The position numbers were made by a program, and so were the translations under genes. This document shows, in pieces, positions 5,976 through 59,602 of a stretch of DNA of 64,000 nucleotides. Position 1 is the first letter of the stretch. Each line of letters starts with the position of its first letter. The notes under the pieces are model-generated. The model made no database searches. It was not told the DNA's origin and saw only the letters and a program-made list of their open reading frames with translations. Source of the stretch: Yuukianura sp. NJ FZ-2021 (taxonomy: Eukaryota); contig CM102287.1 of the NCBI GenBank assembly GCA_046563655.1, positions 4,092,001-4,156,000 on the forward strand, written 5' to 3'.

Positions 5976-8828
5976 ATGTGCACTGGTCTGCCTGGAATCG
6001 TTTTCCTTCTAGTATTAATGTCAGATAACCTCCGAATGACATACGCTCAAGTTGGTGCACCTTGTAAGAAAATTGGCTCAGACTACCGTAAGTGACGAAC
6101 AAATTTGTTGTTGACCTTTGACCTTTGACCTTTGACCTTGCCACAACTTCATGTGACTAACCTAACTTCTGTAGGTTGTCAAGGACTGTTTCTCTGTGAA
6201 GACAAACCAGGAGGCCCTCAATGTCATTGTCCAGAAGAAAAGCCAGTTTGGATTAAAGGGGAAGCCTGTCGCAAAGGTCGTCCCAATGAGGCCTGCAATG
6301 ACCCAAGTAGGCAAATCAGCGATTCGCCGAAAATTTCGCACGCGAAAATTTTTCACGCAAAAATTTTACATGGTATGATAACTTTTTTAGTGCAATGTGA
6401 GAGCGACATGTGTTCCGATGGTAAGTGCCAATGCCCACGAAGTACTCCGTACTATGACGACGACCTCAAGGAGTGCAGAGCAAACCCACGCTCAAAGATC
6501 GGCGGTCCCTGCGATTCAACAGGTTTCAGTTTTGAAAGTTTTCAAAATTTCAAAAAATTTCAAACAAAAATTTTGTCTTTTAGATGACTGCATCCCTGGA
6601 AACTTTCTGACTTGTTCTGAGTACAAATGCATGTGTGAAGCAGGATACTATTTGTTTGGGGCGGATATCTGCAAGAAAAAAGAAACGTTTGGCGGCAAAT
6701 GTGAAACTGAAAGTACGTTTTCATAAAAAAAATTTTTGAAAAGATTTCAAAATTTGATAATTTTGAAACTGCAGATGAATGTGATGATAGGAAAAGTCTG
6801 CTCTGCAAAAATCAGACATGCGATTGTCCAGTTGATTTTGTATGGAAACCGAAAGGATGTAAACAAAAAGTATCGTTTGGAGAAAAATGTGCAATGAACG
6901 GTACGTTGGAACTTGCAAAAATTTTTTGAAAATTTGAAAAAAAAAATCGAAATTTTGGTGGTTTTTCTAAATTGGAAAGACGAGTGCAATGAGAGACAAC
7001 GTCTAGTATGCACCAAAAAGAAATGTGCCTGTATACTAGGATTGGACTGGAAACCGAAGGGATGTGAAAAAGCTGCACCACGGACGTTCGGTGGAAACTG
7101 TTCAAGAAATGGTAAATTTCAAATTTCAAATTTTTAACAAAAAAAAAATTTTTTTTTTGAAAAATGACACAGTTTTCAAAATTTGCAGACCACTGCATAA
7201 CACTACGTCAACTGGTTTGCATCAGGAAGAAATGCAAGTGTAAGACTGGATTTGTTTGGGCCGAAGGAATTTGTAAACTCAAAAAGAATCAAAAAAAGTG
7301 CAATCCATTTGCCGAGCGTAAGTGAATTGACCTTTGACCTTTGAAGTTAGGTTGACTTTTGTTAGAATTTTGACTTTTCAATAATGTTGACCTTTGACCT
7401 CAACTTTTTTGTTTGACCATTCGTTTTTTCAAATAGCAAGGGATTGTCAGGATGGTTTGATGGAATGTGACGTAAAAGATCTCGTTTGTCAATGTCCTGT
7501 CGGACACGAATTTTCTATAGTTACAAAAGCATGTAAGCTCAAAGCTGGAGAGAACTGTTTCATCAACGAAACTTTGCAGCACGATCTCTGCGCAAGTCAA
7601 CAGTGCAATACCAAAGAAGGCTCGGACGAAAAGATCTGCGCATGTCCAGAGAACAACGGAGTCACAGAAACATGGTCATCCGAACCCGGGCAAGGTTGTC
7701 TCACAGAGTACTTGGACCTTCCCTGCGCAGGTTTTCTACAAAACTAAACAAGAAAAAATTTTTTCTCAAAATTTCAAGTTTTTCAAAAAAATTAGGATCG
7801 AGCGACGAGTGTCGTGCAGGAACTTTTAACACGAGTCGTCAAGGCCTCATATGCAAAAACCACATTTGCCAATGTGCTGAAGGTTTGACCTACAAACGAG
7901 GCTACTGCGTCGTAGCCAATCGCCTGTTCGACGAACCCTGTGACCCGGGTAAGTGATCTTGACCTTTGACCTCAACTCACGAGGAGAGGCTTTCAACAGT
8001 TTCTCAAAATAAATTACGGGACTAGTCGCAAAAAAGTTCTTATAATTAAAGAAAAATTTTGACACTAGTTTCGTTTCAAAACGCGAAAAAAAAGTTTGAT
8101 CCCTTTGTGGGATCGAACACCAGCCGGGAATACAAATTGTATAAAAACATGAAAAATGTTGAAAAATTCAAAAGTCTAAGCTAACCAAACTTCATAAACA
8201 GGCTGTTAAAATGGTAAACAAATTTTTTTTAATATTTGTGCTTATTTTGCAATGGGAAAAACAAATTATAGCTTAACCCTTCATCGCCTGGCTGGGGTTT
8301 GAATCCATCTAGGGTTAACTTTTCTTCGCGTTGTGAAACGAAACTAGTGTCAAAAATTTTCTTTAATTATAAGAAATTTTTTGCAACTAGTCCCATAATT
8401 TATTTTGAGGAACGGTTGAACGCCTCTCCTCGTCAACTTCTATTGGGTCAGTATCGTTTGATTTTACTTTTGTAGATGGGATTAATGGAACTTGCAGGGG
8501 AGATGTTGAGACGTCGCTGACTTGTCGAGATATTGGAGGTGGTGACATGAGATGCGTTTGTCTCTTACGGGAGATGACCGTACATGGAAGAAAGGAAACT
8601 GTTGCGTTGAGCTGGAATGCTGACCAGAAAAAGTGTGACCTCAAGCCCAATGGTGCACGGTGCAACGGAAACTATGAGTGTCGAATCGGCCATTGTCGTG
8701 AAACATGTCAAAAAGGAATTTCAGAACGTGCCGGCAAAATATCAGCTGAAGCGAAACTCACTAATCACAAAATTCCGACTGTATTTACTCTCATTTTCAT
8801 CATTTTTAAACTAAATTGCTTGAATTAA
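5976..8828 (+). CDS. Cys-rich EB-module-like protein, tandem copy 3 (4 central modules)
   Basis: MCTGLPGIVFLLVLM signal; module exons near 6583, 6774, 6979 and 7189; conserved core; tail IPTVFTLIFIIFKLNCLN. Confidence 0.85.
7978..8433. mobile_element. Fold-back MITE in last intron of copy 3
   Basis: Long imperfect TIRs (cacgaggagaggc.../...gcctctcctcgt) flanked by a CAACT direct repeat at 7973-7977 and 8434-8438; absent from the same intron in copies 1, 2 and 6. Confidence 0.8.
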
Positions 8829-8839
8829 ATAATTCTGAG

Positions 8840-9085
8840 GGTTGAGGTAAACTTTAACGACCGTCATTGTAGCCGCACAGTGTAGCCACTCCGCCATTTT
8901 TAGTGGCTACAATGGGTGGCTGCACTGGGCGGCAACTTATGTTGCCACTTTAGGTTAGGTTAGGTTAGGTTAAAGCGGCTACTTAAGTTGCCGCTCAGGC
9001 GTAGCCACCCATTGTAGCCATTGAAAAATGGCGGAGTGGCTACACTGTGCGGCTACAATGACGGTCGTTAAAGTTTACCTCGACC
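8840..9085. mobile_element. Fold-back MITE with (TTAGG)n loop and 8-bp TSD
   Basis: About 110-bp inverted arms (ggttgaggtaaactttaacgaccgtc / gacggtcgttaaagtttacctcgacc); TSD ATTCTGAG at 8832-8839 and 9086-9093; centre taggttaggttaggttaggtta. Confidence 0.9.
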
Positions 9086-9457: not shown

Positions 9458-12400
9458 ATGAACATTGCTCTATCTGGAATCGTTTTCCTTCTGGTCATTT
9501 CTGAGGAAATTTGCAAACCTACAAAAGCTATTACGTATGGCGGCAAATGTGCAAGTGAAAGTACGTTTTCGAAAAAACAATTTTTTTTTTAAAATTTAAT
9601 TCAATTTCATTTTTAACGAAAAATTTCAAACCTTCAAAAATTTTCTCTTTTAGAGGACTGCGACCCTGACAAATTTCTGACTTGCTCCTCTGACAAAAAA
9701 TGCACATGTAAACAAGGATACGTTTGGCTTGCAAGTAATATTTGCAAGAAAAAAGACGTACAGACAATTAATGGCAAATGTTTTACTGACGGTACGTTTT
9801 CAAAAAAAATTGATTTTTTTGAAAACTTTATCTCAAAATTTGATAATTTTGGAACCTTGAAAACTGTCAAGATGACTGTGATCCTGACAAAAGTCTTGCT
9901 TGCATTCATCTGAAATGCGTCTGCGCCGACGGTTTTGAATGGAAACCGAACGGATGTGAGAAAAAAGTTGGAAAATCGTTTGGTGAAGCATGTGCAATTA
10001 GAGGTATGTTGAAACACTTTTTTTGAAATTTTGAAAAAAATTTCAAAATTTTGCGTATTTTTCCAAATTGGAAAGACGACTGCGACGGTGGACGACGCCT
10101 TTACTGCATTAGTCAGAAATGTGCTTGCAATCCAGGATTGGAGTGGACACCGAGGGGATGTGAAAGACCTCCACCCAAAACGTTTAATGGAGACTGTACT
10201 TTTGATGGTAAATTTGAATTTTCAAATTTTGGAGAAAAAGGTTTTTTTTTGAAACACAGTTTTCAAAAATTTACAGACCAATGTACAGTGACCGCCAGCT
10301 AAAAGAGTACACCCAAAATATAAATAATTTGTTTATTTTCGAAACCAAGGAAACTGTGGGGGGAAAACTATAGGTTACATATTCTGTTCGGAATGATGTC
10401 CTTCTGCGACAATGCAATAACCTAAACGATCTTCAAATCCTTCTCCGGCCTTCTGAATTGTTTGTAAGGTAATTTCCGTGAAAGCTTGCACAATTTTTTG
10501 CTTGAGGTCATCAAGGTCTTCTGGTTCTTCCTGGAATACCTTGTGTTTAACAATACCCCAGAAACAGTAATCGAGCGGGGTCAGGTCGGGAGATCTGGCC
10601 GGCCATTTTATTGGCCCATCTCTGCCGATCCATTTGCCGGGAAATGCTGCGTCCAGGTAGTTCCTAACTTCCTTCAGCCAGTGAGCAGGGGCGCCATCTT
10701 GTTGATAAAAGACTTCGTTGTTCCCTGCTACTTGTTCCAATGCTGGCCCAATCTCAGATTCAAGCATATCCATGTAGCTTTGACCATTTATGTTGCCCTC
10801 GAAGAAGAAAGGTCCAATGATTGTGTCGCCAATTACCCCAGCCCAAACGTTCACCTTTGGGGCATTTTGAGACTTGGATGCTCTCATCCAGTGAGGATTC
10901 GAATCAGACCAATACCTAGGCACAATTTGGATTTAATCTTTAGTTTCATTTAAAATCGCACCAATACGTTTTTACAAACCGTAAGTTCTAGTGGTTCATG
11001 CGACCATTCGAAAAGAATGTTGCTTCACCTGTGAAACAAATTTTTGTCACCAGAGCAGGGTCTTGCAAGCACATATCCATCATTTGTTCACAGAATTCGA
11101 CCCTCTTTTTCGGGTAATCGTCGGTCAAGGCTTGATGGAATTGCATTTTATATGGGTGAAACCGTTGTAGTTTCAAAATTCTTCTCACAGAAGTTGCCGA
11201 AATTCCTGACCTCTGTGCAATTCGGCTTGTTGAGGCATTTGGGTTTGCAGAGACATATGCTAAAATGGATGCCGAATTCAGGTCATCGGTAGCTGTTTTG
11301 ATTCTGACTCTTTTTTTATTTTCTTGGCTTCCGTGTGTCTCGTGTTTCTTTACAGCTCTCTGGATTGTAAAAATACTAGGAATGGGAAGATTCGGATGAA
11401 TTGCACTGAAAACACTTTGTGCTTCTCGGAAGCTTGACTGTTGATAGTAATACGCAACCATCTCGGCGCGTTGCTGTGTCGTAAACTGAGGCATTGTGTA
11501 CTGCAAAACAGTTAGGTTGTATACTAAACGACAAACGCACGAAAAAAGGATCGTCGACAGGCTAATTCTGTCTACTTTCTTTAAGATGAAAAAAGGAACA
11601 CGATTTTGAAGTATTTTGATCCTTCGTTTTCACCCCGGCCCATTGTTTACCAATTTTTGAACTTGTTTCCTTGGAAACTGAATTGAAGGTGTACTCTTTT
11701 AGCTGGCGGTCACTGTATAACCATACGCCAACTGGTTTGTATCAACAAGAAATGCGGCTGTAAGGCTGGTTTTGATTGGGCCGAAGGATTTTGTAAAGCC
11801 AAGAGGAATCGAGAGCAGTGCAATCCATTGGCAACGCGTATGTCAATTGACCTTTGACCTTTCAAGTTAAATTTTGACTTTTCAGTCAAAATTTTTGACG
11901 GTTGAATTTTTTGACCAGTTGACCTTTGACCTTAACTTTTTTGTTTGACCTTTGTTTTTTCTACTAGCAAAAGATTGTCAGAAAGGTGGAATGGAATGTA
12001 TAGATGGCGTTTGTCGCTGTCCGGCCGGATCCGAATTTTCTGTAGCCGCAAAGGCATGTAAGCTTAAAGCTGGACAGGACTGCTTCATCGACGACATTTT
12101 CCAGCACGATCTCTGCGCAAGTCAACAGTGCATTAACGACAAGGGCAAAAAGATCTGCGCATGTCCAGAGATCAACGGAGTCACAGAAACATGGTCATCC
12201 GAACCCGTTCCAGGTTGTATCACGGAGTACGTGGACCTCCCCTGCGCAGGTTTTCTACACAACTAAACAACGAAAACATTTCCGAAAAGTTTTTCTTTCA
12301 AAATTTCAGGTTTTTTTTTAAAAAAAAAATTAGGATCCGACGACGAGTGTCGTGGAGGAACTTTTAACACGAGTCGTCAAGGCCTCATTTGCAAAAGCAA

Positions 12401-13014
12401 CATTTGCCAATGTGCTGAAGGTTTGACCTACAAGCGAGGCTACTGCGTCGAAGCCAATCGCCTGTTCGACGATCCCTGTGACCCGGGTAAGTGACCTTGA
12501 CCTTTGACCTCAACTCACGAGGAGAGCCTTTCAACAGTTTTTCAAAATAAATTATGAGACCTAAATTTTTCTAGAATTATAAGAAATTTTTTGCGACTAG
12601 TTTCATAATTTATTTTGAGGAACGGTTGAACGCCTCTCCTCGTCAACTTCTATTGGACCAATTTCGCTTGATTTTACTTTTGTAGATGGAATTGATGCAA
12701 CTTGTAGAGGAGATGCTGAGTTGACTTGTCAAGATATTGGAGGAGGTGACATGAGATGCGTCTGTCTCTTACGCAAGATGACCGTACATGGAAGGAAGGA
12801 AACTGTTGCGTTGAGCTGGAATGCTGACCAGAAAAAGTGTGACCTCAAGCCGAATGGGGCACGGTGCAACGGAGGCTACGAGTGTCGAATCGGTTACTGT
12901 CGTGAAACATGTCAAAGAGGAATTGTCGAACGCCCCAAATCAGCTGAACCGAAACTCACGAATTACAAAATTTCTACTGTTTTAACTTTCATTTTCATTT
13001 TAATTTTGCACTAA
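9458..13014 (+). CDS. Cys-rich EB-module-like protein, tandem copy 4 (N-terminal exons missing; exon interrupted by a transposon)
   Basis: The signal peptide runs directly into ...CKPTKAITYGGKC. All exons read by eye are open, except for the Tc1/mariner insertion at a TA within the first 10 nt of the exon starting at 10277. Confidence 0.75.
10286..11715 (-). mobile_element. Tc1/mariner DNA transposon, DD41D (rosa-like) family, 1430 bp
   Basis: Perfect 28-bp TIRs CAGTGACCGCCAGCTAAAAGAGTACACC; TA TSD at 10284-5 and 11716-7; transposase motifs YQQDGAPAH and WPARSPDLTPLDY, with 41 residues between the 2nd and 3rd Asp. Confidence 0.95.
10375..11494 (-). pseudogene. Inactivated DD41D transposase with one 64-bp intron (10916-10979)
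   Basis: N-terminal HTH region MPQFTTQQRAEMV. The first catalytic Asp position reads FTGEA instead of F(S/T)DEA, and there is an in-frame TAG at 10988-10990 in GRMNH*NLR|YWS. A GT-AG intron joins the two ORFs. Confidence 0.85.
12516..12643. mobile_element. Internally deleted copy of the 7978-8433 MITE at the homologous site in copy 4
   Basis: Same termini (cacgaggagag...gcctctcctcgt) and CAACT flanks. Confidence 0.8.
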
Positions 13015-13441: not shown

Positions 13442-16400
13442 ATGTACACTGTTCTGTCTGGAATCGTTTTCTTTCTGGTCATCTCTGACAACACTCGAAT
13501 GACTTACACTCAGCGTGGTGCACCTTGCGATGACCTTGGAGACAAAAAATACCGTAAATGACCAAAAACTTTTTGGTTGACCTTTGACCTTGACACCATT
13601 CAAACTGGTTAACTTAACTTTTGTAGGTTGTCAAAGAATCTTCCAGTGTGAAGATAAACCACCTAGAAAGCCGACTTGCCGTTGTCCGTTAGAAGAGCCC
13701 ATCTTCACTGGAAGTCAACCGGATTGTCGCAAAGCTCGTGTCGGTGAAGAATGTGGTTTGCCATGTAAGGAAATCCGCGATTCTGCGAAAATTTCGCACG
13801 CGAAAACGTGAACCTCAGTACAGTTGACTTTCTCACTTAGGAATTGGGCAAAACACAAAGCAAATGGCAATCGCACAAATGGGGGTTAGAAAATTTCCTT
13901 CCCCTGAGGTTCTATTGCCATTGCAAAATCTACCCATTTCCAAATTTGGTGGATTTTGCAAAGGCAATAGAACTTATTGTCATTGCAAAATCAATCCATT
14001 TCAAAATTTGGTAGATTTTGTAAGGGCAATAGGACTTTTTGCCATTGCAAAATCTACACATTTGAAAATTTGGTAGATTTTGCAATGGCAATTCTCAAAG
14101 TAAGGAAATTTTCTAACCCTTGTTGTGCAATTGCCATTTGTTTTGTATTTTGCCGAATTCAGAAGTTAGAAAGTCCACTGTAGTTTTGATACTTTTTGTG
14201 TAGTCCATTGTGATACGGAGGTCTGTACTGATAACAAGTGCAAATGTCCACCAGAGAGTCCCGACTATGACAGCGATCTCAAAATGTGCAAATCAAAAGA
14301 TAAAGTTCCAGGCAAAGGAAAAACGAACGGAGAGGCATGCGCTAAAGGTTCGTCCAAAAAATTTTCGTTTTTGGTTTTCGAATTATGAATTTTGAATTTT
14401 CGTTTGTAGATGCAGACTGTAACGCTGAATTCCTTTTGAAATGTGAAAAGTCGAAGTGTGCCTGCCCTGCTAAAACCGAATGGAAGCCAGGCGGCTGTAA
14501 GCCATCAAAAGGGAAAGACAAAGAAGGCTCGGCATACGGCGGTCCCTGCGATACAGCAGGTTTCAGTTTAGAAAATTTTTGAAATTTTTCGAAATTTTCA
14601 AAAAAAAATTGCTTTAGGTGACTGCATGGATGGAAAAGGTCTGACTTGTACTTCAAAGCAATGCATATGTGAACCAGGAAGCATTTGGGATGCTGGAAAA
14701 TGCCAGAAAAAAGAAACAAAGCCGTCGTTTGGCGGCATATGTGCAAAGGACGGTACGTTTTCAAAAAAAAAAAAATTACATTTTGGTTTTTTAAATTTGG
14801 TTTCAAAATTTCATAATTTTGGAACCTTGAAAACCGTACAGATGACTGTGACGATAAGAAAAGTCTTGTTTGCTTCAATAAGAAGTGCGACTGTGCAGTC
14901 GAATTTAAATGGAAAGCAGACAAATGTGAGAAATTAAAATCGATTGGCGAAGATTGTACAACTCAAGGTACGTTCCAAAACTCTAGAATTTGCCAAATTC
15001 TTTGAAAAAAAAATTTCAAAATTTTGGTGGTTTTTCAAAATTGAAAAAGAGGATTGCCAGGACGGACAACGTCTAAACTGTACCAATAAGAAATGTGCCT
15101 GCAACCCTGGATATGACTGGAAAAAGAAGGGGTGTGAAAAAGGATCAGCGCGGACGTTTGACGGAACCTGTTCAACTGATGGTAAATTTCAAATTTCAAA
15201 TTTTGAACAACAGAAATTCTTTTTTGAAAATTTCAAAATTTCAAAATTTCCAGACCACTGTATAAAAGAACGCCAACTGGTTTGTATCAAGAACAAATGC
15301 GGCTGTAAGGCTGGATTTGATTGGATCAAAGGATTTTGTAAACCCAAAAAGGATCGAGAGCAATGCAATCCATATGCAATGCGTAAGTGAATTGACCTTT
15401 GACCTTTCAAGTTCAATTTTGACATTTCAGTCATAACTTTTGACCAGTTGACCTTTGACCTTTTGTTTTTTTCAAATAGCAAAAGATTGTCAGAAAGGTG
15501 GGATGGAATGTGACGCGAAAGAAAAATATTGTACCTGTCCTGTCGGATCCGAATTTTCTATAGCTGCAAAGTATTGTAAACTCAAAGCTGGAGAGAACTG
15601 CTTCATTAACAACACTTTGCAACACGATCTCTGCGCAAGTCAACAGTGCATTACCGAATCGGGCAAAAAGCATTGCGCATGTCCACAGGAAGACGGAGTC
15701 ACACAAACATGGTCGTCGTCCAGTCAAGATTGTATCACGGAGTACTTAAACGTTCCCTGCGCAGGTTTTCTACACAACTAAACAGGAAACGTTTCCGAAA
15801 ACATTTTTTTTTTCAAAATTTCAAGTTTTTCAAAAAAAAATTAGGATCCGACGACGAGTGTCGTGGAGGAACTGTTGACCCGCGTCGTCAAAGCCTCATT
15901 TGCAAAAACAACATTTGTCAATGTCGTGAAGGTTTGACCTACCTGAGAGGCTACTGCGTCCTAGCTACCTTGCTGTTCAACGAAGTGTGTGACCCGGGTG
16001 AGTGACCTTGACCTTTGACCTCAACTAGGCAACAAGAGTAGTGTCGAAATTTTTCTTAAATTATAAGAAATTTTTTGCCACAAGTCCCATAATTTATTTT
16101 GAGGAACGGTTGGACGCATCTCCTCGTCAACTTCTATTGGACCAATTTCGTTTGATTTTACTTTTGTAGATGGAATTGGCCCAACTTGCAGGGTAGATGC
16201 TGAGTTGACTTGTCAAGATATTGGAGGTGGAGACATGAGATGTGTGTGTCTCTTACGGGAGATCCCCGTACTAGGAAAGAAGGAAATTGTAGCGTTGAGC
16301 TGGAATGCTGACCAGAAAAAGTGCGACCTCAAGCCCAATGGAGCACGGTGCAACGGAGGCTACGAGTGTCGAATCGGTTACTGTCGTGAAACATGTCAAA

Positions 16401-36195: not shown

Positions 36196-36386
36196 TTCTG
36201 CTCCAAATTACTGCAAATTAAATTAATCAGTAAACAAAGAATTTATTGGTGTCTTGAGCCGATTATCTGTTGGAGTTGTGATTGTTGGGTAACTTCGAAA
36301 GGTAAAACTTCAATTAATTGTGGTTAATCTTTTCAGTTGTTTTAATACTCACTTTAATTGAATTTCAGCCTACCTAAGCCAAAGCC

Positions 36387-37535
36387 ATGCTACGGCGATT
36401 TCGATCAAGACTGTGCTTCCCACGCTTCCACCCCAACTTGCAGATACGGATAGGCGTTTACCTCCTGCTCGTTTGCGTCACGCTACTTGGCATTACATTC
36501 TGGACTCACCCGAGAGTCCTAGTCAGGGACGCCATTTATCTAGCTAGACCAATCTGGGGCCAACCACTCAACCAGCCGAAAAACGTCATACCACATTTCT
36601 ACGCCGAGAACTTGACCACTGCCGAGTTGTGTCGTCTCCATGGCTGGACGACTCGTACACCAGAAGAGCAGCCTGCTGTCTTTGATGCTACGATATTCAG
36701 CACGGAAATTGACTTGCTGGAGATACGACTCCGGGAGTTATGGAACGTTGTTGACAGGTTCATCGTGATTGAAGCCAACTTGACCTTCACCGGAATGGAA
36801 AAACGACTTCACTTGGCTGAAGAACTGAGTAGATTCGAGTGGGCCGAGGAAAAACTGTTTCATTTCACCGTTGACGGACTCGTCAGTCCGCTACCGAAAG
36901 GAGAAACGCCGTTCTACAACGAAATCAAGATGAGGACCTACATGGGCAATCTTCTGGCATCGGATATGTTTGGATTGAAAGCAGGCGATCTAGTTATCGT
37001 TAGTGACGTGGACGAAATCCCTTCAGCAAAAACGATTTCGCTACTCAAGGCCTGTAAGGGATACCGAACTGGCCTTCACCTGCAAATGTTCACCTACTTG
37101 TACTCCTTTGATTTCGTAATGGACAGAGATACGTGGCGACCGCATGTGGAACTTGTGGAACTGTACAATGGGACCAAGTACACGATACCCTACCATCATC
37201 AATTTGCGTCCGATTACATTCTAGCACATGCTGGATGGCACTGCTCCTTCTGTTTTCGAACCCTGGACCAGTTTATATTCAAAATGCTGGCATACTCACA
37301 TACTGACAGGGTTACCAGGGAGGATCAACTGGACAAGACGAACATCCAGGACAAGATTTGCAAAGGTGCGGACATTTTTGACATGTTCCCGGAAGGCTAT
37401 ACTTATCGAGAGCTCATTTCCAAGATGGGCGACCTGCCAAAAACGAATTCAGCTATTGATATACCTGATTTTGTTGTCCAAAATGCTGAGAGGTTCAAGT
37501 ATTTGCTACCCGGTGGCTGTCGACGAGAAAACTAG
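36387..37535 (+). CDS. GT17 beta-1,4-N-acetylglucosaminyltransferase-like protein (plant/fungal type), intronless CDS
   Basis: 382 aa type II membrane protein; RPIW..PHFY.EN...LCRLHGW; FSTEIDLLEIRLREL; EANLTFTG; SDVDEIP (DxD); AGWHCSFCFR; FKYLLPGGC. Confidence 0.92.
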   Translation: MLRRFRSRLCFPRFHPNLQIRIGVYLLLVCVTLLGITFWTHPRVLVRDAIYLARPIWGQPLNQPKNVIPHFYAENLTTAELCRLHGWTTRTPEEQPAVFDATIFSTEIDLLEIRLRELWNVVDRFIVIEANLTFTGMEKRLHLAEELSRFEWAEEKLFHFTVDGLVSPLPKGETPFYNEIKMRTYMGNLLASDMFGLKAGDLVIVSDVDEIPSAKTISLLKACKGYRTGLHLQMFTYLYSFDFVMDRDTWRPHVELVELYNGTKYTIPYHHQFASDYILAHAGWHCSFCFRTLDQFIFKMLAYSHTDRVTREDQLDKTNIQDKICKGADIFDMFPEGYTYRELISKMGDLPKTNSAIDIPDFVVQNAERFKYLLPGGCRREN

Positions 37536-40558: not shown

Positions 40559-43500
40559 TTAAACTCCGAGTTGCGCTGCTGTTTGAATCAGTGCTTTAAT
40601 CGCTGGTAGAAAACTGGAAATTTCTGAAAAGCTTCCGGAAGTTACCAACTGCGTATGAATTCCAAGGCCTAATTGGTAGTCTTTCTTTTCCAGAGCTTCT
40701 GCCATGTTGTGCAAGGAAGACAGTGTTTTAGCCGACAAACTTCCGTCACGTAACTTCTCCGCCAGTATTTCCAATTTTTTTGCAATATCCTCCAACTTCC
40801 GCTTGACTGGTACTTGGTGAGCATGATTGTAGCAAACACTTCGCAGATCTTCCAAAACTTTTATCAACTGAGCATGTTCTGCTGGAACTTCCAAGGAGTT
40901 AGAAGGCTGCTGTGGTTCTAATTTTTGATTGGTTGGAGGGAGTGGAGGAGGAGTTTGCGGTAGGCGAGACTGGTTGCGTGCAGTTGGTGGTGGAGCTCCG
41001 TGTAAATTTGAAACTGACGGTGGCCTTGACGGCGGGCCTTCATGTGGAGTTGAAACTGGTGGTGGCATCGGCATGAATGGCGGAGCTTCATGTGGAGTTG
41101 AAACTGGTGGTGGCATCGGCATGAATGGCGGGCCTTCATGTGGAGTTGAAACTGGTGGTGGCATCGGCTTGACTGGCGGGCCTTCATGTGGAGTTGAAAC
41201 TGGTGGTGCCATCGGCTTGACTGGCGGAGCTTCATGTGGAGTTGAAACTGGTGGTGGCATCGGCATGACTGGCGGAGCTTCATGTGGAGTTGAAACTGGT
41301 GGTGGTATCGACATGAGTGGCGGAGCTTCATGTGGAGTTGAAACTGGTGGTGGCATCGGCATGAATGGCGGAGCTTCATGTGGAGTTGAAACTGGTGGTG
41401 GCATCGGCATGAATGGCGGTGCTCCATACGAACGTGATTGCATAACTGGCGGTGCTCCATATGAACTTGATGGCATAACTGGCGGTGCTCCATATGAACT
41501 TGAGTGCATAACTGGCGGTGCTCCATACGAACTTGATTGCATAACTGGCGGTGCTCCATACGAACTTGATGGCATAACTGGCGGTGCTCCATATGAACTT
41601 GCTTGCATAACTGGCGGTGCTCCATACGAACTTGGTTGCATAACTGGCGGTGCTCCATATGAACTTGAATGCATAACTGGCGGTGCTCCATATGAACTTG
41701 AACGCATAACTGGCGGTGCTCCATATGAACTTGATTGCATAACTGGCGGTGCTCCATATGAACTTGATTGCATAACTGGTGGTGCTCCATATGAGCATGC
41801 AGCTTGTGGCGTGGGGCCCTTTCTTCCTGTCGGAGGCGGTCCCATTGGTGTAGAAGATGCATTATATCCCATCAGCAAACCTGGTGCTGGTGCAGCCTGT
41901 TCAAGCCATCCGTCATATTAAACTATCTGTTTTAAACCGTTTTTTAAAAAATGTGTATAACATTCTTACCCCTCCTCCATACGGAGAATACATCGTCTGC
42001 GGTTCCGGTGCAGCACTGCCAAATATCGGATGTGTTATTGCTTCAACTGCTGGCGTCTTTGGAACCACCGCCTAAAAGACAAAAACGATTTTCAATACAA
42101 AAAATTTTTCAAATATATCAAAAGTGCAACGAAAAATGAAAAACCGTGGATTTAGGCTTCAAAGGCGGCGGATCATTCCATCCATGCGGAACATTTGAAA
42201 TCATTGGTGGTGGAAGTGAAGTAGCAGACGGACGACGTTCTGGATTGGCATATCCGCCACCACCATAGTAGGAAGCACCACCCGACGGAAGATTAGTTGA
42301 GCCACCACCAATTGGTGTCATTTGTTGATGTTGACCATAAGCAGGAGTAGTCATCGTTGTATTGACATTCAATGGATTGTAAAATCCCATTGCATCTACT
42401 GCTTGCTGAACAGGCGGAACTGGTGGTCCAGTTAATGAACTGATGTTTGGTCCATCTGCATACCCTGACATCCTTCTAGAATCATACGTTGATCCAAGTG
42501 CAGGAGACATTTGTCCTGGCATTGGATACGATGGACGTTTGGTCAGTGAATATTTGGAACTTTCTGAAGGTTGTCGACTTCTGGCTGTTTGAACAGGAAG
42601 AGCAGAAGGAGCTGGAGCCGGTCGTGAAGTTCCCAGTACATATTCGACGCGTTGTTTCAAATCAACAATGGCTGGATCCGTTGAGTCCGAGATGTACTTG
42701 AGAGCCGTTTTGAGTGACCCCTGTGACACAAGCAGAGAGCCGTACTTGACCAACTTCTCTCCCAGAATTCTGTCAAGCTCAAAATAGTCTCTGCCATGCA
42801 ATTCCCCAACTTTCTTCAAAACTAGCAACTGCTCAACAGCATCCTGGAAAGGAAAAAAAAATCAAGTTTTCAAAAAAATTCACCCAAAATTGGCAATTCT
42901 TGTGTTAGGCTGGTCAATTCTAGACAAACCTGAAGATGTTCCGGCTTGCCAGACTCATCAGCACGTTCTACAGCCGCAGATGCCCAACTGTCCACCAGAT
43001 GATTGATGTGTCCACAACAAATGTAGCACAGCAGTGCATTCTTCCTCAAACTTTCATCTTCACTTGACCCTAGTCGTCTTCCAAGCGTTTCTGTAAACAA
43101 GAAACAAAGTTAATCTAATAAGTATATCGACGATGCCAGCGTTACGCTGAATTTCATACCTGCCAAGTATGGAAACCCAAGGGGGTCAGAATATGTTAGA
43201 GCAGTGGCCAAAGCTTCCTTCCAGCACTTCAAATCACAGTGTTCAACTACTCGACGCAAATCACGAGTTACGACAGCTACTATCATATTGGAAGTTTCAT
43301 GAGCACGTTTCTGAAAATCGCAACAACAAAAACTCAACTTTTCGAAAATAAACGTAGATATCGAAAAAAGTGAATAAGTGAAAAGTGAAGTACCTGGAAA
43401 TATTTGAGCTGCGTCTTTTTGATTAGTTCTTGACTTCCGGTGGAGGCGAGAATAAGGGCATCTTCCCACCGTGAATGTTGAAGGCACAAGTCTACTGCAA

Positions 43501-48069: not shown

Positions 48070-51000
48070 TTAAATACTTCTAATAAAATTATTAGAAACA
48101 GAATCCTCATTGTCAGGATCGCTGAAGCGCGATTTGCTCCAGTGCTCAAGAATCATTTGAGAAGCGAGTTCGGCAACAGCCTATGAATAAAATATATTAA
48201 AATAAATATAATATTTACAACCATTTCATAGGTTTATTATAATAGCGAAGCTATTATGATAAAAGTGGTTTGTCTGTCTGTCCGTCTGTCTGTCCGTCTG
48301 TCTGTCCAGATTAATTATCTCAGAAACTACTGGCCCGATTTGATTCCGGTTTTCACCTATCAACAGCCCATGACCCGGACTAGGTCACTATTGAATATGA
48401 CCCCCGGGTGTCAACTCCTTCCGGGTCAAAGGTCAAGGTCAACCGGTTTCATCCCCGGTAACATGAAAAATGACCTCTACAAAAGTTGTTCATCTCATTG
48501 AGACTAACAACTTTTGTGTGGAATGTGTGACCCTAGGTCACCTCCTTCCGGGTCAAAATTGATTTTAAAGGTCATTTGTAATGCAAGTGTGGGTACAAAA
48601 AACTCTGCTTGTGAGACTGGAAAGGCAATTGGCATGGGAGTTGGTTCTCTGCTTAGAAAAAAATCCATTGCGCAGTTGACTAACACACTCAACTGTCACC
48701 TGTCACAGTTCATCTGTCACTTCACCTGTCACTTGTCACGTGCCGGGTGTCACCTGTCACGTCTGTCACTTGCCGGGTGTCACCTGTCACTTGCCGGGTG
48801 TCAGCTGTCACCTGTCACTTCCCGGGTGTCATCTGTCACCTGTCACTTTCCGGGTGTCATCTGTCACCTGTCACTCTCCGGGTGTCACCTGTCACTTTCC
48901 GGGTGTCGCCTGTCACCTGTCACTCTCCCGGTGTCACCTGTCACCTGTCACTTTCCGGGTGTCACCTGTTACTTTCCGGGTGTGACCTGTCACCTGTCAC
49001 GTGCCGGGTGTCACCTGTCACTTGTCACTTGCCGGGTGTCACCTGCCACGTGCCGCGTGTCACCTGCCACGTGCCGCGTGTCACCTGTCACCCTCAAGTG
49101 TCACTTGCCGGGTGTCACCTGTCACGCCTCAGCTGTCACGTCTCACCTGTCAAAACCCCCAGGGGGAAGGGCGGGAAAGTGGGGGGAACACACCCCCACT
49201 ACCCCGGGGGGGCGGGAAAGTGGGGGGAACACACCCCTACGCTTCCTGGGGTGCGGAGCAAAAAAGCGGGAAAACACACCCCTACTCCCCGAGGGGGGGG
49301 CGGGAAAGTGAGGAAAACACACCCCCACTTCCCCCGGGGGGGAGGCAGGAAATTGGGGGGAACAAACCCCCTTCGGGGGGACTATTGCTTCGCTATTATC
49401 AGTATGGGCGGTTTACAACCGGTTTATTTGTGCAGTAGGTGAGTTAATCAACTCAGTATTCACAATTTGGGTCAAAACCGTTTTGACCTTTGACCTTACC
49501 TGAACCGTCACGTGATTCACCGATAAATATCGCACTTGCAATACTGAAGCATCTACGACTCTGAGGCCGTTGACCCCCAGAACCCTGAAAGTCCAAAATT
49601 CATTCAGTTTTTACCATTTCCGTTAAAGGTCATCGACCCCCATTAAAGGTCATTGACCTCGTGACCCCTCAAGGTCATTGACCTCACTACCTTAGTTCTG
49701 GATCCACCACAGCCTCGGGGTCAGTTCGGTCCTTCCCCATGGGGGCAGTGGCAGAATACTTGTAGGCAGTCAAGGTCAAATGTCTTGCGTAACACTCCCA
49801 GTACGCGTCACTCTTCCACGGAAATTTTTCACACCCTGGCAGTGGTACGGAAATAAGCGAACCGTTGATTTCCTTGTACGCTTTCGTTTCTTCGACCAAC
49901 TTCACTGAGAATTTGATTGCTAAAAAGAAGGGAACAAATTCGGCAAAACGGCGCTTCGATTTTTTACGATTAAAATATCATTTTATATCAATTTTTGGGT
50001 GTAGATTCCGAATCTGAAACCCGTTTTTGGCGGTCGCACCTCCTTCCTGGTAAGATTAATTAATTAATATTTTAATTAACAGTGTATGCATTTCACATGC
50101 AGAATGAGTGTGTAACCAATGGAGATTCGAATTTATTGTTGTTATATGCTAACCAAACCTAACGCGCGCCTTCGGCGCGGAGATATAACAAACAACAATC
50201 CTTGGTTTCCATTGGTTACACCACAAATTCTCATTCTGTTTATCAAATTCACACTGTTAATTAGAATATTAATTAATTAATCTTACCAAGAAGGAGGTGT
50301 GACCGCCAAAAACGGATTTCAGATTCGGAATCTACACCCAAAAATTGATATAAGACAATATTTTAATCGTAAAAAATCGAAGCGCCGTTTTGCCGAATAT
50401 AAGCCAAAAGAAGTTTTGACAGGTTTAATTTCGGCAGTTTTGTATTTATATGATTTTGATTTCGGAAATTTTAATTTCGCTGAAATTGTATTGCCTCTAT
50501 GCTCACCTTCTAGCAAAATGGCCATGTCACGTGGATTCTGGAGGTACTTGGGGTCAAGTAGAGGGTGGTCAAAGGGGTCCTTGCTACGAAGTTTAAGGGT
50601 CCCTGTCCCTGTGACCCTGTTGAGTGTCACCATTTGGAGAAAAGAGTCTTGACCTTTGACCTTTCCATAATACCTGTCCAGAATGTTCGATTTGATTCCA
50701 AAAGCATTTTGTAGTTCCTGATGATATCGTTCATCTACAGACTGCGCTAAGAAGTAGATGTGGATGTCCGGGTAACCTTGAAGTCCGTCCCTAAATGCCC
50801 TGGAACTGGAAATTGTAAAAGTTGCTTCCGTGCGAGAACATTGAACTGGACCGGTTCCGGAAGTGGCCCATTCCTGCATTGACCTCAAGTTGAGGTCACG
50901 CTCACGCAGAAAACTTGTTCCTGGAGAGGTCACGAATGGACCCAACAGAGTTCCGTATTTGTCCTGCATGATCTCGCCCACTGGAGAGTCCACAACCACT

Positions 51001-54000
51001 GGAATCTAATAAAAAATTTTAAAATTCTTGTATTTTTTGAGTTTCGGAAAATTTGATCTTAGAGTTTTTGAGTTTCGGATAATTTGATTTTATGTTTTTA
51101 GAGTTTTTGGATTTCATTTTCTCGATTCTTTTTAGTTTCGGAGAATTTGTCTTTAGATTTTTTTGAGTTTCGAAGAATTTGGCTTTAGATTTCTTGGCGT
51201 GATCTTACCCCAAGATCATTCAGGTGAGCTTTTGGTCCAATTCCAGACAGCATCAGAATTTTTGCACTTTGAATTGACCCGGCGCTCAACACGACTTCTT
51301 TTTTGCAATAAATTTTGCGCAATTTTCCATACTGAAAGTATTCTACGCCAATTGCTTTTTCTTTCTTTAGCAGGACCTGAAGCAATAAAAGTGCCATAGG
51401 TTGGAACCAGACTTGTGAACCCACATTCGTGTCAGAAAATTTTGAATTTGCACTTTCCGAAAATATTCGCGAATTTTAAAACTGACCTTTGTGACCATAG
51501 CATATTTGAGAACAGTGAGAGATTTTCGCTGGCCAATGATTTCTTGCAAATAGCCTTGGTACGAACTCCATCTTCTGCCGTTCTTCAAGTAAAAGTCCAT
51601 AGGAGCAAATCCTGGAATTTTTGCAATTAGTTTTTTTTAAATTGCAAATTTTTGCAAATTGCGAATTTTTTGCACTAACCTTCGGTAACAGGACCGTAGG
51701 GATTGGGATCACGAACTGGGTAGCCTAACTCAATTCCAGCACGGAGAAAATGGGTTGACACGGGATTCAAATGAGATTTTTCAATTGACAAGTGACCACC
51801 TTTACCATGAGTAAAACCTTGCAAAAAAAAAATGAAAAAATGCAAACAAAAGTTAAAATTTTTGAAAAAGGGAGAAAAAATCTTTCAATTGTTTCAAGTG
51901 AACTAGAGCTGTAAGTTATTGTTAAACCAAATAGAAAGAATGAAAATTTTACCGTCGTCGAAGTATCCATGATAGTCTTCCAGAGATTTGTAGAATCTAG
52001 TTTTTTGAAAATAATTTAGAAAATTTCTTTTGAAACTAACAAAAATTTCGAATTTTTTTTTGAAATTTTTGTTTACTTCAGGATATTGCTCATCTTCCAC
52101 TTTGGATTTCCAGTCATGTTAGCAAAAGTGTCAAATCCCTGGACATTTCCACGCAGAAAAATCATTCCGTTTATGTTACTCGACCCACCTAAGCCTTTCC
52201 CTGCTGGCCAGCGATTGGACTTCAAAATTTCGAAAAAAAAAAAAAAAAAAAATTGAAAATTTTCTGAACTTGAGGTGTCTAATCAGTGTTCCCAGTTTCA
52301 GTCACTGGACATTCTGGTCGTCCGCCCGAAAACGTCTTTTGGACATTTCGGTCCAAACCCTTTCAGTCGACCGAAATGATCAAAAGTAATTTTAACCCTA
52401 CAGGAGGTGCGGGAGATTTGAACATTTGGGAGACGTGGCCAGGTTTGGCACACGGTGCATGTGCATACCGTGTATGCATTTTGGTCGGACATGTCGGTCA
52501 TTTTAGTCGTTTCAGACATTTCAGACCAAAATTTGAAAAAGTGACCGAAACTGGGAACACTGTGTCTAATAACACTTTGACTGTTTGAACTCACGTTGTT
52601 AATTATTCCAAAAGAAGCCGCTTTTTGCGGAACAGTTCTGTACTGCCAGTCCACTCCATCGCGACCATGCATAACTTAAGGTCAAAAGGTCAAAGGTCAA
52701 TTGGGTTTCAAATTGTTTTCAAGTTGACCTTGAAAAAAGTTAAGGTGAATTTACCATAGGTTAGTAGAGGTATTCTCAGAAGAGGTATTGGGGTACCACC
52801 TGAAGAAGAAACAATTTACATCATCATTTCCTGGAGCGTGCTTGGGAGTGTCACGTACGCAGTGTTTTTAGTTCGTAATTATGACAAAAAATTGCGAATT
52901 TTTCGTTTTTGCGAAAAAAATATTCAAAAATTTTTTGCAAGTACCTGCTTCAATGAGTAGCACTTTGTGACTTTCCGACAACCTGTTTGCCACTACGGCT
53001 CCAGCACTCCCTCCTCCAACTAGAAAATTTAATACATTTAATACAAATCATCCAAATTCGCAAAAATTCGAAAAAAAAATTCCAAAGTTTGCAAAATACG
53101 TGGGTTTCCCAAAGTATGCCAAGTTGACATTGAACTTTGTCCAACTTTAGGCATTACGTAAAGGATTTAAGTTGTTTATGATACAATATTTTGAAAAAAT
53201 GAGCTGAAGAGTATAAATCACAGACTTTGGCTTAACCTTGTTGCGATTTAGCAAAAACTCCAAATCCTGATTTGCGAATAAATTGGCAAAAATTAAAATT
53301 GAAATTGGAATTATTAAGGTAGACCACTGGAGAAGTAGACCTTCAGAAAACAGGTTGACTCATGTGCAGAATTAAGAAGAAACTTGTTATGATCCAGCAC
53401 TGACGTTAAAACAGTGTCATTTTGTGTACTTTTTTGTGAATTGTGCTCATTACATTTTGTTTTGGTATTTAAATTGTATTGAAAATCAACAAAAAAGTTT
53501 GTTTAGATTCCAAAACTTCCTTGTTTCTTTTGTTTTTGCGTCATCCTAACCACAAGAATAACTAAGTCAAGGATTTTGTTTCTGATTTTTGTTTCAGATT
53601 CTGGAAAACTCCGACTCCAAAATTTTGAAAATTTCGCATTTTTAAGTTTTTTGAAAACTCAAAATAGCGAAATGTGTGGACATGGTTTTCGCAAAGAAAA
53701 TATGCATAGGAGTTTGTCAAAAATTTGAATTACAAAAAGCCAAAAAAAATTCATCAGTGAAGAAATTTTCGAATCATCACTGATAAATCATCACAGTCCA
53801 TAAAAATTATTTTGTCATTTTGTCAACTGCAAGGTTTGAAAACAAAGAAAAATGTTCGTTTTTCTACAACCTGTTGTAGAAAATACAATTCTGTTCTCAA
53901 GGAACCTTGGTCAACTGTTGGAAATTCGAAAAGCAAAATTTTTGTAAAAAATTTCAAAAAACACTTCAAAAATTTTTCTTACCAACAATAAAGTCGAAAT

Positions 54001-57800: not shown

Positions 57801-59602
57801 GATTATCTTTGCAGATTTGCAAAAGTGAAAGAAGTTGCAAAAATTCAAAATTTCGAAAACGTACATTGTTTCTTAGGCCGAAACAAGCTGCTTTTTGAGG
57901 AACTGTTCGCCATTTCCAGTCGACTGCTCCGATTCCGTGCAAAAAATACGTCATCAGAGGAATTCGTAACATGGGGTGCGATGTCCCACCGGCCTCGAGC
58001 AGTAAAACGCGGTGGGACTGTGATAAACGATTAGTCACCACAGCTCCAGCAGATCCAGATCCAACTTGAATTTGCAAAAAAAAAGAGAAGAATTTTTGCA
58101 ATGTTGCAAAAAGTAACAAAGACTTTTTAAAACCTTTCGTTTATTGTCCAAAATCTTCCTTTTGTGTAATTCGCAAACTGTGAAATCGCAAATTACATCA
58201 GCACTCTTTATTTTTTGACAAAAAGTTTGCGAATTTGCGTATTTTTGTACTTTTTGTTAGTTTTTATGACTCATCAGAGGTGTTATTTTGCGAAATAGAT
58301 TAAAAATGGAAACAAACACAAAGAAAATTGAAACTTGGAAGAAATTAAAAAGTGTGGGAATTTTGCAAAAAGTGATTTCGCATGGCGTCCTTGAATTTTT
58401 GTAGGAAGAATGTCAGTTCCCTGAGAGTGTCAATTTGCAATTAGTTTCGATTTAATTGCAAATTTCAGTGAGTACAAGTAACTCATCCTTCAATTCGTGC
58501 GAAAACTTAATATGAGCATGACATCTTTAAACTTGATACACAAGGAAGACAATCCACGACTATAAATGCAAAACAAACACCATTTTGCATAAACAAACAA
58601 TGATTTGTTTACAAAAATTTGCAACATACAAAAAGGAGTCTCATTTCTCTCCATTTCTTCTTTGCAAAAATTCAGTCTTTAATAAAAAGTCTGTTTTTTC
58701 AATATTTCTTGTTTCATAAAAATCCTCATTAATTCAATTGCTCCTGATTTTCTCAGGAACCTAATTTCTAAAATTTGCAAATCCAGAAATTGCAGAAATT
58801 ACAGAAACTGCAACCATTTTGCAACTTTTGCAATATCCGGTACATTAACTTTAATAATTTTTGGATTACGTGGCTGCACTTGAACTTTAATGCTTAATTT
58901 TAGCACAAGTTTGTGACATTGCCATTTCTCACCAAAATTTGCACACTTTTGCAAAAAGAAAATAGGCACGCTTGTTCTTTGCTGTTGTTACAGCTGTGCT
59001 AAAAATTTGCGTGATGCAAACAAAACCATCAATGCTCAGTTTTGCACTAGTTAACAAACGCAATTGAGTCACTCAAAACTTTAAAGCTCACCAAAACTTA
59101 CTCTAACATTCAGTTTAGATACAAATAGGGTTCAAAGCCAAAATTCAGTTAAGCAATTAGGATTAGATGCATTTTTTCTTTGAAATTTTGAAAAACCCAA
59201 ATTTTTTATTTCGGAAATTTTGAAACACCTTGAAATTCTGCTGATGTTAGGTAAGATTAGGCCAGGAACAAATAAGGTACAAAGCCAGAATTTGGATTAA
59301 GATGCATTTTTCTTTGAAATTTTGAAAACCAGATTTTTTTTAATTTGAAAATTTTGAAATTAGGTATGCTATGTTTGAGCGTTCTTACCCACAATGAAGT
59401 CAAATTCCTCTTGACCTAAGTCATCAAATCGACCTGCCATGCGTTCCACATTAGTGTCAAAGGTCAACCATGAATAGAGTATGGGAGCAATGAACTCCAG
59501 GCCAATTATGAGCATTTGAGCCATCGCAGTCAGCTGACCTCCATTGGCACTGACCAAAGCCAAAGTGGCGGGAAACCCACCGCCGGATTCAAAATCAGCC
59601 AT
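54810..59602 (-). CDS. GMC oxidoreductase, copy A
   Basis: EFDFIV|VGSGSAGAVVTNRL..VLLLEAGG; GRGLGGSSNINGMIYFRG; EVILSAGSIQSAKLLMLSGIGP; AVVDSELR|VFGVNGLRVIDASV. Confidence 0.93.
55067..55712. repeat. Intronic minisatellite with a 60/72-bp unit that degenerates to a 12-bp core
   Basis: Unit tatgtggtcaaaatatgtcgccagaatatggaagcgtcagaatatatcagggtca(g/a)gaa, about 7 copies. Confidence 0.9.

What the first reader, a model, noticed from the sequence alone, without database searches (positions are those of the whole stretch)
10277..11760. Exonic DD41D transposon whose right TIR supplies an in-frame splice acceptor that restores the interrupted Cys
Seen: the element sits at the TA of TGT ATA in exon ag|AC CAA TGT ATA ACC. 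The right TIR reads ...gtactcttttAG|CT GGC GGT CAC TG, followed by the duplicated TA. Splicing the normal upstream donor (GAT G|gt, about 10208) to the AG at 11701-11702 gives ...FD-AGGHCITIRQLVC. This is in frame, adds two residues, and rebuilds the H-C-I that copies 3, 5 and 6 have (DHCI). A donor at the left junction (CAA T|gtacag) is also in frame (DQSGGHCI). All other exons of copy 4 stay open while the transposase is dead. Established: Tc1 insertions can be spliced out of host mRNA. Inference: copy 4 may still be functional, and this TIR may generally let the family behave as an intron.
Basis: partly seen in the sequence, partly recalled or inferred. Interest (0 to 1): 0.8.

Follow-up and report, generated by a model that had tools for sequence, protein, structure and literature searches.

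The report
Young transposon inside a coding exon
A recently inserted Tc1/mariner-type transposon interrupts a coding exon of one of six tandem gene copies, and its end happens to carry a splice-acceptor-like sequence that could remove it from the mRNA in frame, but no RNA data could be obtained to show that this happens.

Summary
A 1430-bp Tc1/mariner element (10286-11715) has perfect 28-nt inverted ends and a TA duplication. It sits in the first Cys codon of exon 5 of paralogue copy 4, 9 nt after the exon's acceptor. Its transposase (minus strand, DD41D spacing) has an in-frame TAG and a Gly at the first catalytic Asp.

The AG at 11701-11702 follows 'ctcttttag', the same 9-mer as copy 4's modelled exon-2 acceptor.

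No RNA run was listed and no genome is held.

Three results weaken it:
- The coincidence is not rare: 22 of 39 TA sites in this gene's exons 2-8 would be in frame, and 10 of those rebuild a Cys.
- Every exon is phase 1-1, so skipping exon 5 is also in frame.
- The AG lies inside a 30-bp, -58 kcal/mol TIR duplex, and the native acceptor is intact.

The idea is already in print. Zhao et al. 2025 (SOS splicing) describe Tc1 11 nt from an acceptor being removed by junctions from the upstream donor into the 3' ITR. About half were GU-AG.

Verdict: a real, young exonic insertion and a new member of a known kind. Moderate-low interest.

The parts
10286..11715 (-). Tc1/mariner element, 1430 bp. The transposase gene is on the minus strand, antisense to the host gene.
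   Evidence: Pfam DUF4817, HTH_Tnp_Tc3_2 and DDE_3. 342 homologues at E<=0.001, the best at 58% identity.
10286..10313 (.). Left TIR, 28 nt.
   Evidence: 100% complementary to 11688-11715. Similarity ends after 28 nt.
11688..11715 (.). Right TIR, 28 nt. On the host sense strand it reads ggtgtactcttttag|CTGGCGGTCACTG.
10284..10285 (.). TA target-site duplication, left copy. Its T is the third base of the Cys codon 10282-10284.
11716..11717 (.). TA target-site duplication, right copy.
11701..11702 (+). Candidate 3' splice-site AG inside the right TIR. 13 nt of TIR plus the TA remain after it.
   Evidence: The 9-mer ctcttttag is identical to the modelled exon-2 acceptor of the same gene (9645-9653). 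Its use is not shown.
10375..11494 (-). Transposase coding region, 351 codons, read on the minus strand. It runs from the ATG at 11494 down to the last codon at 10375, with one 64-nt GT..AG intron.
   Evidence: and the alignment to homologues.
10916..10979 (-). Inferred intron of the transposase gene. Removing it gives NLRYWSDSNPHW, as in the homologues.
   Evidence: Inference from alignment, no RNA.
10988..10990 (-). In-frame TAG at codon 169 of the transposase.
11027..11029 (-). GGT (Gly) at codon 156, where 6 of 6 aligned homologues have the first catalytic Asp (F[ST]DE).
9458..13014 (+). Host gene, paralogue copy 4. Eight modelled exons: 9458-9560, 9654-9791, 9872-10003, 10076-10207, 10277-11837 (interrupted), 11968-12249, 12334-12486 and 12686-13014. 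All internal exons are phase 1-1.
   Evidence: The model rests on paralogue alignment and open frames, not on RNA.
10207..10208 (+). Donor of intron 4 (ATG|gtaaat).
10275..10276 (+). Native acceptor AG of exon 5 (tttacag|AC). It is intact and lies 9 nt upstream of the element.
10300..10302 (+). First in-frame stop (TAA) if exon 5 is read into the element.

Best explanation
A young copy of a DD41D-type Tc1/mariner transposon inserted at a TA inside the first Cys codon of exon 5. The host is one of six tandemly duplicated genes for a secreted, Cys-rich modular protein. The transposase of this copy is already disabled.

The native acceptor 9 nt upstream is untouched. Default splicing should therefore give an mRNA that stops 24 nt into the exon, so the allele is most likely a recent null or hypomorph in a redundant family. 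The open state of its other exons reflects the youth of the insertion.

The acceptor-like AG in the TIR and the in-frame H-C-I read-out are real sequence facts. They are of a kind expected by chance in this gene.

If any functional mRNA is made, the best-supported route is the published removal of inverted-repeat transposons from animal mRNAs. That process is triggered by pairing of the two TIRs (SOS splicing). It includes the 'hybrid' and GU-AG isoforms seen when the element lies within about 11 nt of a host splice site. The junction 10207^11703 would be one candidate isoform among several.

Shown: the anatomy, the frames, the TIR duplex and the dN/dS values. Inferred: every statement about RNA.
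For: Youth of the insertion: the TIRs match 28 of 28, the TA duplication is intact, and the transposase has only two disabling features in 351 codons, with its intron ends intact.

Host gene: the empty-site model is a complete 457-codon frame. The native acceptor is intact, and the first stop falls at 10300.

Selection: pairwise dN/dS over 327 codons is 0.39-0.51 for all six pairs of copies 3-6. Pairs with copy 4 give 0.44-0.48. So there has been no long neutral drift.

Chance: 22 of 39 TA sites are in frame, and 10 of 39 also rebuild a Cys.

TIR duplex: 30 bp, -58 kcal/mol.

Literature, Zhao et al. 2025, PMC12779559, Main parts 1-2 and passages of Extended Data legends read:
- Exonic Tc1, Tc3 and Tc4 are excised from 90-100% of host mRNAs.
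- ITR pairing is necessary and sufficient.
- Excision sites rarely map to GU-AG.
- With Tc1 11 nt from a host acceptor, isoforms join the upstream donor to sites in or near the 3' ITR, about half of them GU-AG.

Redundancy: six paralogues with differing module numbers.
Against: There is no RNA evidence of any kind, so 'null or hypomorph' is as untested as 'rescued'.

The organism was not identified. SOS splicing has been shown only in C. elegans and human cells. Whether this host has AKAP17A, CAAP1 and RTCB orthologues could not be checked.

The TIR acceptor is at least as good as the gene's own modelled acceptors: 6 T and 8 pyrimidines in -15..-4, against a native range of 2-8 T. The published dpy-19 case shows that an intact nearby acceptor does not prevent use of ITR sites.

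A complete frame with unelevated dN/dS is also what a still-functional gene would show.
Confidence: 0.5

Rival explanations
1. The spliceosome joins the intron-4 donor (10207) to the AG in the right TIR (11702), or uses the 10282 donor. The element is removed as an intron, and copy 4 makes a working protein with 2 or 4 extra residues.
For: Both junctions are in frame without stops.

'ctcttttag' equals the modelled exon-2 acceptor of the same gene and ranks with the best of 7 native acceptors.

The left-junction donor AAT|gtacag shares gtac with two native donors, which read gtacgt.

Because the TIRs are perfect, the acceptor is present in either orientation.

Precedent: GU-AG isoforms from the upstream donor into the 3' ITR in Tc1::dpy-19(n1347). 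The authors also speculate that transposons evolved splice sites in their ITRs (Zhao et al. 2025, Extended Data Fig. 9 legend).
Against: The native acceptor 9 nt upstream is intact and closes a 69-nt intron. The alternative intron would be 1495 nt.

The 10282 route needs a 6-nt exon.

The AG lies inside a perfect 30-bp duplex of -58 kcal/mol, which would hide it from splicing factors.

No RNA data.
Confidence: 0.15
2. Exon skipping. Exon 5 with its 1.4-kb insert is skipped (10207^11968). The protein stays in frame and lacks one module of about 43 residues.
For: All internal exons are phase 1-1, and the skipped form translates without a stop.

Module number differs among the paralogues. Copy 4 lacks about 1.1 kb of modules that copy 5 has between 13488 and 14660. 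Loss or gain of a module has therefore been tolerated in the family.
Against: Introns here are short (69-199 nt). That suggests intron-by-intron recognition, in which the small intron 4 would be spliced normally.

The exon-6 acceptor (ctactag|C) is not stronger than the native exon-5 acceptor.

No RNA data.
Confidence: 0.1
3. Adaptive 'introner-like' TIR. This transposon lineage has evolved a 3' splice site in its TIR so that exonic insertions are tolerated. Copies should then be enriched in exons at compatible codon phases.
For: The AG with its T-run lies 13 nt from the end in both orientations.

Introner families of DNA-transposon type carry one splice site and co-opt the other from the target duplication. 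Some add 12 nt, which is 4 residues, to the mRNA (Gozashti et al. 2022, PMC9860276, passages).
Against: Only one copy is visible: 1 in 64 kb.

Among 12 relatives' TIRs, 6 share the A4G box that gives the T-run. None has a T-run followed by [ACT]AG, and one has TTTTGAG. The T-run therefore looks like an inherited TIR feature, and the AG like a single lineage-specific step.

The element carries no convincing 5' splice site. CA|gtgacc would be out of frame, and GA|gtacac runs into a TAA (and my reading).

In-frame outcomes are the majority expectation anyway (22 of 39).
Confidence: 0.07

Closest known systems
SOS splicing and hybrid SOS-spliceosome splicing of exonic Tc1, Tc3 and Tc4 in C. elegans (Zhao et al., Nature 2025, PMC12779559). 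The earlier report is Rushforth & Anderson 1996, which I saw only in that paper's reference list; the paper itself is not held.
   Same: A Tc1/mariner-superfamily element with base-pairing TIRs sits in a coding exon. Here it is 9 nt from the host acceptor, against 11 nt in Tc1::dpy-19(n1347). The proposed junction, upstream host donor to a site in the 3' TIR, is the geometry reported there. Some products are in frame and leave short indels.
   Different: A different element family (DD41D spacing, 28-nt TIRs against the 54-nt ITRs of Tc1) and an unidentified host. No RNA, no genetics. Whether the host has the SOS factors is unknown.
Introners: DNA-transposon-derived elements that create introns (Gozashti et al. 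2022, PMC9860276, passages read).
   Same: TIRs and a target duplication. One splice site is carried by the element and the other taken from host or duplication. A few extra codons may be left in the mRNA.
   Different: Introners are defined by many near-identical copies sitting as spliced introns, and the described families are nonautonomous transposons. This is a single full-length copy with a transposase gene. It has no carried donor, and splicing is not shown.
Visitor (DD41D) family of Tc1/mariner transposons. The name was seen in the abstract listing of bioRxiv 10.1101/2022.10.13.512200.
   Same: TA duplication, short TIRs, HTH plus DDE_3 domains, and 41 residues between the second and third catalytic Asp.
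   Different: The first catalytic Asp is Gly in this copy. The best protein match is only 58% identical. Phylogenetic placement within the family was not done. The transposase gene has an inferred 64-nt intron.

Membership tests
Tc1/mariner superfamily, DD41D (Visitor-type) | TA target-site duplication and terminal inverted repeats | tested here: met
   TA at 10284-5 and 11716-7. TIRs match 28 of 28.
Tc1/mariner superfamily, DD41D (Visitor-type) | Transposase with N-terminal HTH domains and a DDE_3 catalytic domain | tested here: met
   DUF4817 at E 2e-8 (above its cutoff). HTH_Tnp_Tc3_2 at 2.4e-6 (below its cutoff). DDE_3 at 1.3e-6 and 28.7 bits, against a cutoff of 28.6.
Tc1/mariner superfamily, DD41D (Visitor-type) | Catalytic triad D, D, D with 41 residues between the second and third | tested here: inconclusive
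   D245 and D287 give a spacing of 41. The first position is Gly156 in this copy, where 6 of 6 aligned homologues have Asp.
Tc1/mariner superfamily, DD41D (Visitor-type) | Phylogenetic grouping with named Visitor or rosa transposases | not tested
   No named reference sequences were fetched. The closest database proteins are unnamed, or called 'transposase' or 'hypothetical'.
Substrate of SOS or hybrid splicing | Inverted repeats able to base-pair in the transcript | tested here: met
   30-bp perfect duplex, -58 kcal/mol.
Substrate of SOS or hybrid splicing | Located in an exon of a transcribed mRNA (intronic copies are not excised) | tested here: inconclusive
   It is exonic by the gene model. 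Transcription is not shown, because no RNA holder was listed.
Substrate of SOS or hybrid splicing | Host encodes AKAP17A, CAAP1 and RTCB orthologues, and excision depends on them | not testable with these tools
   No genome is held for the window.
Substrate of SOS or hybrid splicing | Heterogeneous excision junctions in or near the TIRs in cDNA | not testable with these tools
   No runs were available for read laying.
Introner | Element carries or co-opts both splice sites | tested here: inconclusive
   A 3' site-like AG is present. No in-frame donor is carried by the element. The only in-frame donors are host sites at 10207 and 10282.
Introner | Many near-identical copies sitting as introns in genes | not testable with these tools
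   One copy in the window. No genome is held. Exact 22-nt TIR scans of prokaryote genomes and viral contigs gave 0 and 0. Those collections would not hold this host.

The most novel reading that the evidence does not exclude
This DD41D lineage carries, in both TIRs, a working 3' splice site 13 nt from its end. Exonic insertions with the T of the target TA at codon position 3 would then be spliced out in frame from the upstream host donor, reading ...H-C at the junction. This would apply especially to insertions close to a host acceptor. It would be a full-length animal Tc1/mariner element caught at the first step towards introner behaviour. It would also be natural evidence for the speculation of Zhao et al. 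2025 that transposons evolve splice sites in their ITRs.
Probability: 0.1. Interest if true: 0.65.

Novelty: new member of a known kind. Interest (0 to 1): 0.33.

Why it matters
If copy 4 still makes in-frame mRNA, it would be a natural, non-laboratory example of an animal gene buffered against an exonic DNA-transposon insertion. It would come from an element family and a host other than those in which the phenomenon was defined.

It would also offer a clean test case. One defined GU-AG candidate junction can be set against TIR-pairing-driven excision, with five uninterrupted paralogues beside it as internal controls.

As it stands, it is a well-documented young insertion whose consequences for the RNA are unknown.

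Tried and rejected
RNA evidence: the look-up of sequencing runs on window:9000-13100, kind rna.

Whole genome: none is held, so there was no census of other copies, no phase-bias test and no search for SOS-factor orthologues.

Earlier scan notes: nothing by place, by sequence (twice) or by words.

Host protein family:
- The last exon against longer proteins gave no hit at E<=0.001.
- Pfam on seven exon translations gave only sub-threshold EGF/EB-like matches. The best was EB at 19.2 bits against a cutoff of 24.3. An earlier Pfam call gave 0 families for two exons.

Organism: Rfam gave 0 matches and there were 0 tRNAs. A neighbouring GT17 gene matches springtails, Mucoromycota and plants at 54% or less. 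The Atlas gave only GMC-oxidoreductase clusters. The taxon is left open. I first took the host for a nematode and dropped that.

Exact 22-nt TIR scans gave 0 matches in genome contigs and 0 in viral contigs. Neither collection is expected to hold this host.

Other donors inside the left TIR, from my reading: CA|gtgacc leaves +17 nt and is out of frame. GA|gtacac is in frame but passes the TAA at 10300.

Rushforth & Anderson 1996 (PMC231018) is not held.

A literature search for TIR splice acceptors in mariner elements listed 10 of 24 papers, none on this point by title or abstract.

Full report
**What is there**

Positions 10286-11715 are a 1430-bp element. Its 28-nt ends are perfect inverted repeats, and it is flanked by a duplicated TA at 10284-5 and 11716-7. 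Similarity between the two ends stops after 28 nt. No second copy or fragment lies in the 64-kb window.

The minus strand encodes a transposase. Pfam finds DUF4817 and HTH_Tnp_Tc3_2 in the N-terminal half and DDE_3 in the C-terminal half. A database search with the C-terminal half found 342 longer proteins at E<=0.001, the best at 58% identity. Most are unnamed, a few are called transposase, and a few come from insects.

I aligned the two window frames with six of these proteins. The two frames are separated by a 64-nt GT..AG stretch (10916-10979). Removing it restores the family motif NLRYWSDSNPHW, so I read that stretch as an intron of the transposase gene.

The resulting 351-codon frame has two disabling features:
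- an in-frame TAG at codon 169 (10988-10990);
- Gly at codon 156, where all six homologues have the first catalytic Asp.

The second and third Asp (245 and 287) are 41 residues apart. 'DD41D' and 'dead' are therefore both justified. With so few lesions and perfect ends, the copy is also young.

**The host gene**

The first 20 kb of the window hold six tandem paralogues. For copy 4 I built a model from paralogue alignment, open frames and GT-AG boundaries. It has eight exons between 9458 and 13014.

With the element and one TA removed, the model gives a complete 457-codon frame. It starts with a hydrophobic leader and ends with a hydrophobic tail. Exons 2-5 each encode one Cys-rich module of about 43-45 residues. 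These modules have only sub-threshold EGF/EB-like Pfam matches.

All internal exons are phase 1-1. The model rests on no RNA.

The element lies in exon 5, which begins at 10277. The target TA spans the third base of the exon's first Cys codon. Copies 3, 5 and 6 are uninterrupted at the homologous site and read DHCI. Copy 4 reads DQCI.

Every step checks out.
- The donor is at 10207|10208.
- The AG is at 11701-11702.
- Junction 10207^11703 gives FD-AGGHCITIRQLVC, a net gain of 2 residues.
- Junction 10282^11703 gives DQSGGHCI, a net gain of 4 residues.

The two junctions differ by six bases, so their being in frame is one coincidence and not two.

The acceptor context 'ctcttttag' is the same 9-mer as the modelled acceptor of exon 2 of this gene. 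By T and pyrimidine content it ranks with the best of the seven native acceptors, several of which end in aag or tag. The left-junction donor AAT|gtacag resembles two native donors that read gtacgt. Because the TIRs are perfect, the same acceptor would be offered in either orientation.

**Is it more than chance?**

Not obviously. I enumerated all 39 TA dinucleotides in exons 2-8 of the empty-site model.
- At 22 of them the junction 'upstream donor to TIR AG' would be in frame, and none of the 22 runs into a stop.
- Ten of those 22 hit a TGT codon.

The bias arises because coding sequence avoids TA at the codon positions that risk stop codons, and because this protein is full of Cys. Once the frame fits, the TIR's last bases plus the TA always read CAC TGT. 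The 'restored H-C' follows automatically and needs no separate explanation.

I also looked at relatives' ends. From 80 metagenome loci encoding relatives at 48% identity or less, an inverted-repeat scan gave 27 candidates. I picked 12 by eye whose ends looked like family termini. The other 15 were contig-end palindromes or unrelated repeats.
- Six of the 12 share an AAAAG box at about the same distance from the end as here. On the other strand this box gives the T-run.
- None has the T-run followed by [ACT]AG, and one has TTTTGAG.

The pyrimidine run therefore looks like an inherited TIR feature, and the AG like a lineage-specific addition. These relatives probably come from other animal groups, so this is weak evidence.

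**What happens to the RNA?**

This could not be tested. No genome is held.

Sequence alone allows four outcomes:
1. Default splicing to the intact native acceptor at 10276, 9 nt before the element. This gives a stop at 10300 and probably a decayed message.
3. Skipping of exon 5, which is also in frame. It is plausible in a family whose paralogues differ in module number.
4. Excision triggered by pairing of the TIRs.

For outcome 4 there is now a strong precedent in Zhao et al. 2025 (PMC12779559). I read Main parts 1-2 and passages of the Extended Data legends.
- Exonic Tc1, Tc3 and Tc4 are removed from 90-100% of host mRNAs in C. elegans.
- Removal occurs at several sites in or near the ITRs and rarely at GU-AG.
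- It rescues function only when the product is in frame and the indel is tolerated.
- In the Extended Data Fig. 9 legend, Tc1 lies 11 nt from a host acceptor (dpy-19(n1347)). It gives isoforms that join the upstream donor to sites in or near the 3' ITR, and about half are GU-AG.
- The authors speculate that transposons have evolved splice sites in their ITRs.

That is the geometry proposed here, with the element 9 nt from the acceptor.

Two points count against the AG being the main route:
- It sits inside a perfect 30-bp duplex of -58 kcal/mol.
- The competing native intron is 69 nt, against 1495 nt for the alternative.

**Is copy 4 still functional?**

Nei-Gojobori dN/dS over 327 aligned codons of exons 4-8 is 0.39-0.51 for all six pairs among copies 3-6, and 0.44-0.48 for pairs with copy 4. 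By my own arithmetic on those distances, the terminal branch of copy 4 has a ratio of about 0.4, no higher than that of copy 3.

Copy 4 was therefore under constraint for most of its history. This says nothing about the time since the insertion, which looks short. An intact frame is expected either way.

**Comparison with known systems**

The element is a Tc1/mariner member with DD41D spacing. It works like, and may be a substrate of, the transposon-excision pathways described for Tc1. It resembles an introner only in carrying an acceptor-like site. Introner families of DNA-transposon type that carry one splice site and add 12 nt to the message are described in Gozashti et al. 2022 (passages). 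They are defined by many spliced copies, and only one copy can be seen here.

The host organism was not identified. Rfam and tRNA scans were empty. A neighbouring GT17 gene matches springtails, fungi and plants at 54% or less.

**Verdict**

The functional interpretation is untested and not favoured over simpler readings. It is a new member of a known kind, of moderate-low interest. One RT-PCR would settle it.

Noticed in passing
window 8840-9085: Two 83-nt arms (8840-8921 and about 9003-9085) are inverted copies at 96% identity. The loop holds four TTAGG units (about 8943-8965). This is a MITE-like palindrome in the spacer between paralogue copies 3 and 4.
   Followed up: no
window 12517-12643, also 7979-8059/8340-8433 and 16084-16127: Intron 7 of the paralogues holds a stretch that matches itself in reverse orientation at 75-89%. 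It is probably another small inverted-repeat element, shared by several copies.
   Followed up: no
window 10916-10979 (minus strand): The transposase gene of the element appears to have its own 64-nt GT..AG intron. Removing it restores the conserved NLRYWSDSNPHW motif.
   Followed up: partly
window 9458-9653 compared with 13488-14660 and 6013-6553: Copy 4 goes from the signal-peptide exon almost directly into the last four short modules. It lacks about 1.1 kb of modules present in copy 5 and about 0.5 kb present in copy 3. Module number varies among the six paralogues.
   Followed up: partly
window 36378-37532 (+): A single-exon glycosyltransferase family 17 ORF (PF04724). Its best matches are springtails, Mucoromycota fungi and plants at 54% identity or less, with no close relative in the database. 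The distribution is patchy, and the taxon of the window is unresolved.
   Followed up: no
window 40562-41917 (-), 48508-49439 (+), 54958-55796 (+): Three long open frames are made of tandem peptide repeats: SSYGAPPVMQ-type and PPVSTPHEAPP-type, CHLS/VTCRVSP-type, and KYVARIWKRQNISGS-type.
   Followed up: no
window 50322-51005 (-), 57406-58140 (-): Exons of GMC-oxidoreductase-like genes. The Atlas features gave GMC_oxred_C clusters for the first stretch. The second I judged by eye from its GxGxxG motif.
   Followed up: no
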